A stretch of DNA of 64,000 nucleotides from Escherichia coli (lineage in GTDB: Bacteria; Pseudomonadota; Gammaproteobacteria; Enterobacterales; Enterobacteriaceae). Shown one piece after another: positions 40,801-43,800 of the stretch (the stretch's first letter is position 1; every line of letters starts with the position of its first letter). The stretch is taken from NCBI RefSeq assembly GCF_001677475.2, contig NZ_CP015229.1; one strand, written 5' to 3'. The position numbers are program-made.

Positions 40801-43800
40801 TGTAGTGTACTCGCAATTTCAGGTCTCTGGCGTTTATTCTGGTGCAAAGGAGGTATGTGATGAAAACTTTGCTACCATGCCATTAAATGCGACCAATATC
40901 GGATTATCCATCAGTTGCTTGTTGTAGATTTCATTGGTTATAAAAATGCAAGGTGTAAAAGATGAAATTTATAATTATTAGTTAAGTAGCTAGTTTTATA
41001 GTAATTTAGACAATAGGATGTATGGAAAAATGGAAAAAGTTTATGATACCACTAGAATTAGTAATCTTGCTAACGACCCGAAACAGTTTTGTTCTTTTTT
41101 TTGTGAGTACATAAAAAGAGATGATATTAGTATAGATATCGCCTTGGCTGTGCTGAGAATATCTTCCATCTATTATAATAGATTTTCAGTTCAGACTGAA
41201 GTTGAGTATAACAATACATTCAAAAAATGTATTAATGAGCTAGTAAACTCATTTCCTGATAACATTGAACTAATCTCTGAGTTCGAGAGTCAATGTAAAA
41301 TTATGCATGATATAAATAATTCTTTCTTTGCGGCTACAAAATGTGCTGGTATTTGGCGTAAAAATACAAACAAATCACATGCATTAATACTTAATCTCAT
41401 CATGTTTTGTGAGATGTTTTTATCATCATTATCATCCTTGGTTGTGGTCAATGATCCTAAAAAAATGAAGAGGATTTTTCCATTATTTATCGTTTCTGAA
41501 AATATTAATATTCATGCTGAACCTGATATCGAATATTTTCGAGTTATCGATAGGGCATTTGATGAGGTAGCCAATTACACCGGAAGAATATTTTCTTATT
41601 TACGGACTCATGGGCCATTGAAACTAACTTCTTGTGTGAATAAACAAACCTTGCTTTCAATGGGAGGGTACCTTAATGAGTGGAATGTTTTTGACTCATT
41701 AAGCAGAGTAAGAGACTTTTTCAGACTAAGTAGTGCAGTATTTACAAAATTGGATAATAACATTTACTCTCTTGAGGTTGATAGTTTTTGTTTATACCGA
41801 GATTATGAGATTGCAAGAAATAGACTGATGATGAGAGCGTCACATCTATATAGCGAAGTTCATGAATTTAGTAACAAACATTTTCATCTAAATAGTTGGG
41901 TAAAGGATCATATGCCATCTTACTTAAATTCTGATGGCGTTTTTAGCTCATTTCATCTAAGCGAGTTGGAAAATATGTCTCCTGATGACCTTCATGAAGA
42001 ATATGGGAATATATCATTATTTAATTGGGTGCACGCTTATCAATGTTTAGTCGAGTTATCTAAAGAAGAAATGAGCAAAAGATTTTCATCGACAAAACCT
42101 ATACCCCTACAGTTGGATCGCTGGCTGATCATAAAAAGCCGTGAGAGTTGGTTATCATTCTTTCAACGTAAGGGGATTGCAGCAGATGCAGCAAAAAAAC
42201 TGATAGATTATTTTACCTTCAATTCAAAATCACATGATCTTAATGATTGCCCATTTATTCCCTGTATGGACGGTTTATGCTTAATGCCTGCATTAATAGC
42301 AAATAGCTCAGTGACTCGCTCTCTAATGTCATTATTTGGTTCCAAAAAAATTTCTCAAGCAAGTAAAGGGCGATTTCATGAGCAACAATTTATAAAACAA
42401 GTTCGTGATGCGGGGATTAAAGCTTCTCCAATTGATGCTCATGCTAATTATCAGTGCGATTGCGTGATTCTCCTGGATGATTGTTTGATTTTTACAGAAC
42501 TAAAATCAAATGGTCAACCAATATATTATGGTAAGTACTATCAGCAAGTGTGTAACATCGTTGGAGATAGCTCATTAATACATGATCATAATAATAAATT
42601 TATGCGTTCTTATTTTCAACAAATAAATCGAATTTCTGAACATTATCTTAATCATCTTGATGTGATCATTAAAGAATTCGAACTACCATCAACATGGCAA
42701 CCCAAAGGTGTGTATAAGCTTATTGTTACTACAACTATGCTCGGTGGGAAATATCATGTGGATGATACATATGTAGCGGACAAATATGCATTATCTGGTT
42801 TTTTTCAACGAATACCTGGAGTGATATATCAAACAAATGAAAATGGAAAAATGGCGAAAAATATCATTGATGGGTTTGAGTGTTGCGAAGGGGAAATCAC
42901 TATCGATAAGTTTATAGATTATCTTTCCTCTTTGCCCAGTATTAATGCTGTACGTAAAAATATAAAAAAATTAACTTATAGTGTTCGATTTAATGAAAAA
43001 TTAGTCCATCATCCTTATTATGATTCTTGGGATTTTGGCCCATATATTCGTAAGGGAAATGATTAGAGCAATTTATTATATAGTCCATGTTATTCACTGA
43101 TTATATTATTGATAATATAATCAGTGAATAACTCTAATTTTTTTAATGTTGGAGTTTAGCCTGAAGTTGAAATTGGTACTACGGAACGGTATGATCATAT
43201 CGCATCAAAATATCAAGGTAGTGATGATTTTCTACGCACCGATCCAGAAACGTGGATTTTATCATCACCTTAAGCAATGGCAGCGACAACACCATCAATT
43301 TCTATATCAAAGGTGGTGAAATAAATTAGAAAATTGTTTATTTAATCCATTAGCGATAAGTTTTATTGTTATTTAGCCGAGATATATTCCATTGAAAAAA
43401 GTAAATTGGCACTGATATTATATCAAATGGGAATAATCCTTTTGTAAATAAGCTGAGGAATGTGTTAATTCACATCCAGCGCCTTATAAACCGCATCAAC
43501 CGGTTCTGAGTAAAAACTTACCTGAAAGTTGGTAAACAACTCTGCCGGAACTGTTGGAATATCCATAGCCGAGGATATCGGCAACAGAACTCGTTTTGCG
43601 CCGCTATCGAAGGCGAGTTGTAAACTAGCGGCAAGATCCTGCACTGATTATGTCAGCAATATTGAACATACTGCGATAGTTATCAACCTCACCCCCTAAA
43701 AACCTCTTTCCGATGCCACTCCACAAATCCCTCATAAGGGTAATTTTTACGTACCTGCGGCAAAGCAATAGTTTTCCCGTCAAAATCCCAGAATAGTTTC

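What the first reader, a model, noticed from the sequence alone, without database searches (positions are those of the whole stretch)
43465..43647. Lon-like protease C-terminal remnant between the orphan ORF and the HNH gene
The minus-strand frame encodes about 60 residues ending ...GAKRVLLPISSAMDIPTVPAELFTNFQVSFYSEPVDAVYKALDVN*, bounded upstream by a stop with no plausible start. The pattern is similar to the last roughly 45 residues of Lon-family protease domains. Lon-like proteases are components of some defence systems (for example BrxL in BREX), so this may be the scar of an older defence locus partly replaced by the current cargo.
Basis: inference. Interest (0 to 1): 0.5.

Follow-up and report, generated by a model that had tools for sequence, protein, structure and literature searches.

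The report
Leftover end of deleted BREX gene brxL
This is the dead 3' end of brxL, the last gene of a BREX anti-phage system, left behind when about 14.6 kb of that system was deleted next to the leuX tRNA gene of E. coli; it is a common, neutrally decaying scar.

Summary
The minus-strand frame at 43465-43644 encodes the last 59 residues of BrxL, the "Lon-related" protein of type 1 BREX (NCBIfam TIGR02653 E=2.5e-23; PADLOC BrxL 5.6e-19; PDB BrxL 1e-20). Similarity to canonical Lon is negligible (no Pfam match; Lon E=0.32).

In E. coli genomes with an intact locus, the gene order is PLD-like<-brxL<-pglZ<-pglX<-brxC<-brxB<-brxA, a membrane-protein gene, then the same HNH (phosphorothioate-sensing) endonuclease gene and nanS. 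Compared with that order:
- The window lacks 14,568 bp, and the junction lies at 43679/43680, 9 bp after the HNH stop codon.
- The relic extends 35 bp beyond the reported end, to 43679.
- It carries a 57-bp in-frame deletion between GTGCAGGA repeats and a Lys-to-TAA nonsense codon.

The identical junction occurs in 360 of 5426 complete E. coli genomes, about as many as carry intact brxL (345). Variation among nine scar copies is 7 non-synonymous (one nonsense) to 2 synonymous, which fits neutral decay. The adjacent HNH gene shows 18:32.

A decayed 5' piece of the PLD-like gene (43182-43366) lies beside the relic. The BREX genes were deleted cleanly, not overwritten by the 682-aa ORF. Verdict: an ordinary pseudogene scar, of low novelty.

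The parts
43465..43644 (-). brxL relic, block 1: codons 636-694 of BrxL plus the TAA stop (43465-43467).
   Evidence: TIGR02653 E=2.5e-23; PADLOC BrxL; PDB BrxL 8EIL/8EMH; tblastn residues 636-694 at 93% identity; 169/180 nt identical to intact brxL.
43645..43679 (-). brxL relic, block 2: 35 bp matching BrxL codons ~605-616 (LIALCSILLAKP). It contains the nonsense codon TAA at 43648-43650, which is AAA (Lys615) in intact genes.
   Evidence: 28/35 identity to L002 18425-18459 and L003 18239-18273, colinear and in frame. Chance expectation is below 1e-5.
43637..43644 (-). Retained copy of the 8-bp repeat GTGCAGGA, at the junction of a 57-bp in-frame deletion that removed BrxL codons 617-635 (VQEQMVVLGSMTLGGVINP).
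   Evidence: Intact brxL has GTGCAGGA (GTACAGGA in L002) twice, 57 bp apart; the window has one copy.
43679..43680 (.). Junction of the large deletion. Relative to L002 it removes 14,568 bp: brxL codons 1-~604, pglZ, pglX, brxC, brxB, brxA and a membrane-protein gene. There is imperfect microhomology, GCGATA on the brxL side and GCGGTA on the HNH side.
   Evidence: Window 43182-43644 aligns to L002 17884-18367 and window 43680-46000 aligns to L002 33027-35347; base-level view; annotation of L002.
43367..43464 (-). Spacer downstream of the brxL stop, homologous to the brxL-to-PLD-like intergenic region of an intact locus.
   Evidence: blastn alignment to L002, 85% identity.
43182..43366 (-). 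Decayed 5' relic (first ~62-77 codons) of the PLD-like gene that follows brxL in intact loci. The start codon is changed (ATG to ATA), and it has frameshifts and an internal stop.
   Evidence: tblastn with the L002 PLD-like protein hits in three different frames, combined E=4e-16.
43689..44561 (-). Intact neighbour: phosphorothioated-DNA-binding HNH restriction endonuclease. It is the stable right-hand anchor beside which BREX sits in intact loci.
   Evidence: NF045808 438 bits against a cut-off of 180. Annotated the same way in all comparator loci. Variable codons 18 non-synonymous to 32 synonymous.
40256..40340 (+). tRNA-Leu (CAA), leuX, the left anchor of the variable island.
   Evidence: ARAGORN; Rfam tRNA.
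41018..43066 (+). 682-aa ORF of unknown function (the 'current cargo'), followed by a palindromic terminator-like hairpin at 43089-43132.
   Evidence: ORF list. No Pfam, NCBIfam, PHROG or PDB match; weak PADLOC PDC-M29B hit, E=1.3e-3; hairpin.

Best explanation
Window 43465-43679 is a non-functional relic of brxL, the last gene of a type 1 BREX anti-phage operon. That operon once lay in the leuX defence hotspot, between the PLD-like gene and the phosphorothioate-sensing HNH endonuclease gene. One illegitimate (microhomology-level) deletion of about 14.6 kb removed brxA, brxB, brxC, pglX, pglZ, the first ~604 codons of brxL and an adjacent membrane-protein gene. It fused the rest of brxL to a point 9 bp past the HNH stop codon. 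The relic also carries a 57-bp slippage deletion between 8-bp repeats and a nonsense codon. It does nothing now: it has drifted neutrally and has been passed on, by descent and recombination, to about 6.6% of complete E. coli genomes.

Shown: identity as brxL, the breakpoints, the shared junction and the substitution pattern. Inferred: that there was a single origin, the order of the three lesions, and the lack of any residual function.
For: - BrxL-specific matches.
- Intact comparator loci place BREX exactly between homologues of the window's two flanks: L002 and L003, with alignments.
- No other BREX protein has a tblastn match anywhere in the 64-kb window.
- The identical double junction occurs in 360 of 5426 complete genomes. 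All nine scar loci read base by base share the 57-bp deletion, the TAA and the large junction.
- Among those nine, the 59-codon frame has 7 codons with amino-acid changes (one a GAA-to-TAA nonsense in L005) against 2 synonymous. The neutral site ratio is 3.2. The adjacent HNH gene has 18:32; Fisher p=0.029.
- There is no Shine-Dalgarno-like sequence before the GTG, no Rfam family and no terminator-like site in the relic.
- RefSeq already flags the frame as 'incomplete; missing N-terminus'.
- BREX is a known occupant of the leuX hotspot, in 9% of isolates (PMC12707154).
Against: - The neutrality test rests on nine sequences and nine variable codons.
- The fixed differences between the relic and intact brxL genes are 4 non-synonymous to 6-7 synonymous. 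That is not neutral-like, so part of the divergence probably predates the deletion, and the true parental allele was not sampled. All four intact alleles examined are about 6% different.
- The 35-bp block is 20% diverged against 6% for the 180-bp block (p=0.005). This is unexplained.
- The 59-codon frame is still open in 8 of 9 copies, and it sits downstream of the HNH gene on the same strand with no predicted terminator between them. Transcription, though not function, is therefore plausible.
Confidence: 0.93

Rival explanations
1. The 59-codon frame is a living small gene. It would be translated from the GTG at 43644 and yield a peptide containing the BrxL tail-to-tail dimer-interface segment, which might modulate or poison an incoming BREX system or serve another role.
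For: The frame is open with a GTG start in 8 of 9 copies read. It lies downstream of the HNH gene on the same strand with no predicted terminator between them. It retains the residues aligned to T658/Q661 of the solved BrxL, which are dimer-interface positions. Over-expression of a much larger engineered 3' brxL remnant had global effects in Salmonella (PMC9009780).
Against: There is no Shine-Dalgarno-like sequence. The substitution pattern is 7 non-synonymous to 2 synonymous, including a nonsense codon in L005. It covers only 58 of the ~180 residues of the C-terminal domain, so it is unlikely to fold. RefSeq treats it as a pseudogene.
Confidence: 0.03
2. The relic persists because it has a cis-acting role. 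It could serve as a 3' UTR or stabiliser of the HNH endonuclease mRNA, or as a patch of homology that lets recombination swap the neighbouring cargo.
For: The same scar is found with two different downstream flanks. One is the PLD-like type (window, L001). The other is the type seen after intact brxL in L003/L004 (L005), with the switch exactly at the brxL stop codon. This shows flank exchange around the relic. The relic is directly downstream of the HNH gene.
Against: There is no structured RNA family and no terminator-like element. Nucleotide diversity of the relic (0.014) equals that of the adjoining decayed non-coding stretch (0.0136), so no extra constraint is seen. About 1000 genomes carry the HNH gene without the relic.
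Confidence: 0.04
3. The match is a chance resemblance, or the frame belongs to a larger intact gene read in another frame.
For: None found. Pfam gives no match for the 59 residues.
Against: E-values of 1e-19 to 1e-28 against BrxL models and proteins. 94% nucleotide identity to intact brxL. Only 35 bp of further brxL sequence lie upstream, followed by the flank of the HNH gene. The other frames hold only short mechanical ORFs.
Confidence: 0.003

Closest known systems
BrxL of type 1 BREX (NCBIfam TIGR02653; solved structures 8EIL, 8EMC, 8EMH; E. coli alleles such as WP_001462982.1 and WP_001767831.1)
   Same: The relic is colinear with BrxL residues ~605-616 and 636-694 and ends at the same stop codon. 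It is 93% identical in protein and 94% in DNA to intact E. coli genes. The downstream spacer and the next gene (PLD-like) are also shared with an intact locus.
   Different: Only about 70 of 694 codons remain. The N-terminal domain, the AAA+ ATPase and two-thirds of the C-terminal domain are gone. It has a 19-codon internal deletion and a nonsense codon, and none of the partner genes (brxA, brxB, brxC, pglX, pglZ) is present in the window.
Canonical Lon protease (MEROPS S16, Pfam Lon_C PF05362)
   Same: BrxL's C-terminal domain has the same fold as the Lon protease domain and is named 'Lon-related' in annotation (PMC10164562). Some database copies of the 59-aa frame are labelled 'ATP-dependent Lon protease'.
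   Different: There is no Pfam Lon_C match for the fragment, and the best real Lon in the PDB scores E=0.32. BrxL's C-terminal domain is about 14% identical to Lon and lacks a conserved protease motif. BrxL is a DNA-binding ring, not a protease.
Other BREX relics in the same E. coli hotspot
   Same: These are independent partial losses of the same operon next to the same HNH gene or the same flanks. L004 has a 330-bp 3' brxL piece cut by IS911. L014 has brxA plus a brxB 5' stub cut by IS1. The engineered 'brxL remnant of Salmonella StySA is the laboratory analogue.
   Different: Those relics are bounded by insertion sequences or a drug cassette. The window's scar has no IS and was made by plain deletion with little microhomology. 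It is much shorter, and it is the widespread form (360 genomes).

Membership tests
BrxL (TIGR02653, type 1 BREX) | Sequence match to the BrxL-specific profile | tested here: met
   E=2.5e-23 over profile positions 617-675 of 675; PADLOC BrxL E=5.6e-19. As expected for a fragment, the score of 82 bits is far below the whole-protein cut-off of 628 bits.
BrxL (TIGR02653, type 1 BREX) | Full three-domain protein (N-terminal domain, AAA+ ATPase, C-terminal Lon-like domain; about 680-695 aa) in one open frame | tested here: not met
   Only codons ~605-616 and 636-694 remain, with a nonsense codon and a 19-codon deletion. It is a fragment of a family member, not a functional member.
BrxL (TIGR02653, type 1 BREX) | Operon context brxA-brxB-brxC-pglX-pglZ-brxL | tested here: not met
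   tblastn with all BREX proteins finds nothing else in the window. The context is present in homologous loci L002 and L003.
Canonical Lon protease (S16, Pfam Lon_C) | Match to the Lon_C profile or to Lon sequences | tested here: not met
   No Pfam hit even at E<=10; Lon protease 7P6U scores E=0.32.
Canonical Lon protease (S16, Pfam Lon_C) | Ser-Lys catalytic dyad | not testable with these tools
   From general knowledge of E. coli Lon (Ser679/Lys722 of 784 aa), the retained 59 residues lie C-terminal to where the dyad sits. The BrxL C-terminal domain shows no conserved protease motif (PMC10164562).
Pseudogene relic (deletion scar) | Truncated relative to full-length homologues, with mapped breakpoints | tested here: met
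   Breakpoints at 43644/43645 (57 bp) and 43679/43680 (14,568 bp relative to L002).
Pseudogene relic (deletion scar) | Disabling mutations and a neutral substitution pattern | tested here: met
   TAA at 43648-43650 and a second nonsense codon in L005. Variable codons are 7 non-synonymous to 2 synonymous, against 18:32 in the neighbouring gene (p=0.029); the neutral site ratio is 3.2. The sample is small (9 loci).

The most novel reading that the evidence does not exclude
The relic is not inert. Either the 59-aa peptide, which retains the BrxL ring-to-ring dimer-interface segment, is made from read-through HNH transcripts and interferes with BREX systems arriving by transfer. Or the 215-bp patch is kept because it serves as the homology arm through which brxL-terminated defence cassettes are swapped in and out of the leuX hotspot.
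Probability: 0.04. Interest if true: 0.5.

Novelty: already known. Interest (0 to 1): 0.15.

Why it matters
As an object it is ordinary: a gene fragment that public annotation already flags as incomplete. Its modest value is as a dated marker of defence-system turnover. One specific BREX deletion scar is as common among complete E. coli genomes (360) as intact brxL of this family (345). At least two other independent BREX relics exist at the same site. This gives a concrete example of how often the leuX hotspot loses BREX while keeping the neighbouring phosphorothioate-sensing endonuclease. It also warns annotators that the 59-aa 'ATP-dependent Lon protease' or 'peptidase' entries in databases are brxL debris.

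Tried and rejected
- Pfam scan of the 59 residues gave no match, so a generic 'Lon protease domain' label cannot be supported from the fragment alone.
- A large protein-database search with the 59-aa sequence returned only short fragments (58 hits, mostly 59-aa E. coli/Shigella entries). It did not reveal a closer intact parental allele.
- I compared the relic with the divergent (~87%) brxL allele group (L012 chromosome, L013 plasmid) to see whether it was the parent. It is no closer: 169/180 and 26/35 identities.
- Rfam and the promoter/terminator scan found nothing inside the relic.
- I looked for an insertion sequence or other mobile-element trace at the junction. The 35 bp first taken for 'filler' turned out to be brxL itself.
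- I looked for other BREX debris in the window and found none.
- Brief attempts to name the 682-aa ORF failed, and I did not pursue it.

Full report
**What is at the coordinates.** On the minus strand, 43644..43465 is an open frame of 59 codons plus a TAA stop. An in-frame TAA lies at 43648-43650. The frame formally begins with GTG, but no Shine-Dalgarno-like sequence precedes it.

**Is it more than chance?** Yes.
- NCBIfam TIGR02653 ('protease Lon-related BREX system protein BrxL') aligns it to the last 59 profile positions at E=2.5e-23.
- PADLOC's BrxL model gives 5.6e-19.
- The solved BrxL structures 8EIL, 8EMC and 8EMH give about 1e-20.
- An intact E. coli BrxL aligns residues 636-694 at 93% identity.
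- The resemblance is specific to BrxL. Pfam finds nothing, not even Lon_C, and the best genuine Lon protease in the PDB scores E=0.32.
- The BrxL structure paper reports about 14% identity between the BrxL C-terminal domain and Lon, no conserved protease motif, and a DNA-binding AAA+ ring rather than a protease (PMC10164562).

**The ancestral arrangement.** A megablast of 43300-43760 against 5426 complete E. coli genomes found both near-identical loci and loci with a full brxL.
- In strain EC7072022BGR (L002) the order is leuX, island cargo, PLD-like gene, brxL, pglZ, pglX, brxC, brxB, brxA (all on the minus strand). A membrane-protein gene follows, then the same phosphorothioated-DNA-binding HNH endonuclease gene, an HNH stub, and nanS-nanM-nanC.
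- Strain AH25 (L003) has the same six-gene BREX block.
- Window 43182-43644 aligns to L002 17884-18367, and window 43680-46000 aligns to L002 33027-35347.

**The breakpoints.**
- The 35 bp between the two alignments (43645-43679) looked like filler. It is in fact brxL sequence from 57 bp further upstream: 28/35 identical, colinear and in frame, with a chance expectation below 1e-5.
- The relic therefore spans 43465-43679. It consists of BrxL codons ~605-616, a 57-bp in-frame gap (codons 617-635) and codons 636-694.
- The 57-bp gap lies between two copies of GTGCAGGA, as expected for slippage.
- The TAA at 43648-43650 is a mutated Lys615 codon (AAA).
- The large deletion is 14,568 bp relative to L002 (18459-33026) and ends 9 bp after the HNH stop codon. 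The only microhomology is imperfect: GCGATA on one side and GCGGTA on the other.
- No insertion-sequence trace is present at the junction.
- No other BREX protein matches anywhere in the 64-kb window.

**A second relic.**
- Downstream of the brxL stop, 43367-43464 matches the brxL-to-PLD-like spacer of L002.
- 43182-43366 matches the first ~62-77 codons of that PLD-like gene. The start codon is changed, and there are frameshifts and an internal stop.
- Homology to L002 ends at about 43182. Next comes a palindromic terminator-like hairpin (43089-43132) and the converging 682-aa ORF.
- So about 500 bp (43182-43679) is a fossil of the old BREX island with a junction at each end.
- The BREX genes themselves were lost by plain deletion. 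Replacement by 'current cargo' is plausible only on the PLD-like side.

**Population picture.**
- A 201-bp query spanning both junctions is covered at 80% or more in 360 of 5426 complete genomes (6.6%). All rows listed in the spread sample at that coverage are single alignments.
- The body of brxL is present at 80% coverage or more in 345 genomes. This one scar is therefore as frequent as the intact gene.
- Nine scar loci read in detail (window, L001, L005-L011) all share the 57-bp deletion, the TAA and the large junction, which argues for a single origin.
- In L005 the sequence after the brxL stop is of the type found after intact brxL in L003 and L004, not the PLD-like type. The flank has therefore been exchanged around the scar.
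- Other relics at the same site are independent events. L004 has a 330-bp brxL 3' piece cut by IS911. L014 has brxA plus a brxB stub cut by IS1, next to the membrane-protein gene and the HNH gene.
- In L015 McrBC and a type I R-M system occupy the slot instead.
- The literature describes leuX as the most occupied E. coli defence hotspot (#37), with BREX in 9% of isolates (PMC12707154). Salmonella's StySA BREX also sits at leuX (PMC9009780).

**Is the relic doing anything?**
- Among the nine scar copies, the 59-codon frame has nine variable codons. Seven change the amino acid, one of them to a stop (GAA to TAA in L005), and two are synonymous.
- The neutral expectation from site counts is 3.2:1.
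- The adjacent HNH gene in the same genomes shows 18 non-synonymous to 32 synonymous variable codons; Fisher p=0.029.
- Nucleotide diversity in the relic (0.014) equals that in the neighbouring decayed non-coding stretch (0.0136).
- Rfam finds only the leuX tRNA in 40000-46000. No terminator-like site lies in the relic.
- RefSeq annotates the frame as an incomplete pseudogene, labelled 'hypothetical protein' or 'peptidase'. Protein databases hold many 59-aa variants, some labelled 'ATP-dependent Lon protease'.
- Together these indicate neutral decay.

**Loose ends.**
- All four intact alleles examined, including the ~87% group on a chromosome and a plasmid, encode an identical BrxL C-terminus. 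They differ from the relic at 11/180 and 7-9/35 positions.
- The fixed differences in the 180-bp block are 4 non-synonymous to 6-7 synonymous. This suggests the parental allele was already somewhat diverged and has not been sampled.
- The excess divergence of the 35-bp block (p=0.005) is unexplained.
- The neutrality test uses few sequences.

**Verdict.** The thing itself is an ordinary, already-flagged pseudogene fragment: the brxL end of a deleted type 1 BREX system. Interest is low. The only mildly notable points are how widespread this single scar is and that it documents repeated BREX loss beside a retained phosphorothioate-sensing endonuclease.

Noticed in passing
window 44660-44765 (+): C-terminal ~34 codons of a 216-aa HNH endonuclease that is intact in other strains (for example L010 5399-6049). 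The window lacks about 571 bp, including the gene's 5' end. The two alignment pieces overlap by 12 bp (44660-44671), which suggests a microhomology deletion. This is a second scar on the other side of the phosphorothioate-sensing HNH gene.
   Followed up: partly
window 43182-43366 (-): Decayed 5' relic of a PLD-like gene that follows brxL in intact BREX loci. The start codon is changed, and there are frameshifts and an internal stop.
   Followed up: yes
window 41018-43066 (+) and hairpin 43089-43132: The 682-aa ORF has no Pfam, NCBIfam, PHROG or PDB match and only a weak PADLOC candidate hit (PDC-M29B, E=1.3e-3, aa 466-515). By eye, the stretch CDCVILLDDCLIFTELKS looks PD-(D/E)xK-like. It is followed by a perfect 20-bp-stem palindrome with a T-run. 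The ORF travels with the scar in most loci but is pseudogenised in some (internal stop in L006/L007, IS5 insertion in L010).
   Followed up: partly
window 43689-44561 (-): The 'HNH gene' is a phosphorothioated-DNA-binding restriction endonuclease (NF045808, 438 bits). A search with a query that includes its last 72 bp matched about 1370 of 5426 complete E. coli genomes. In every locus read here (14 loci; truncated in L003) it lies between the variable defence slot and nanS, and it appears to be under purifying selection.
   Followed up: partly
L014 11920-12605; L004 8002-8331: Independent BREX relics in other strains: brxA plus a brxB stub cut by IS1 (L014), and a 330-bp brxL 3' end cut by IS911 (L004). 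BREX has been lost several times at or near this hotspot.
   Followed up: partly
window 43645-43679: This 35-bp brxL block is 20% diverged from intact genes, against 6% for the adjoining 180 bp (binomial p=0.005). The cause is unknown. It could be mutation clustered at the repair junction or a mosaic parental allele.
   Followed up: no
L006-L008, L011 (about 1.5-2.5 kb beyond the HNH gene): In several scar-bearing strains nanS/nanM are truncated and a type II Zorya system (zorE, zorB2, zorA2) sits there instead. The right side of the HNH gene is therefore also a variable defence slot.
   Followed up: no
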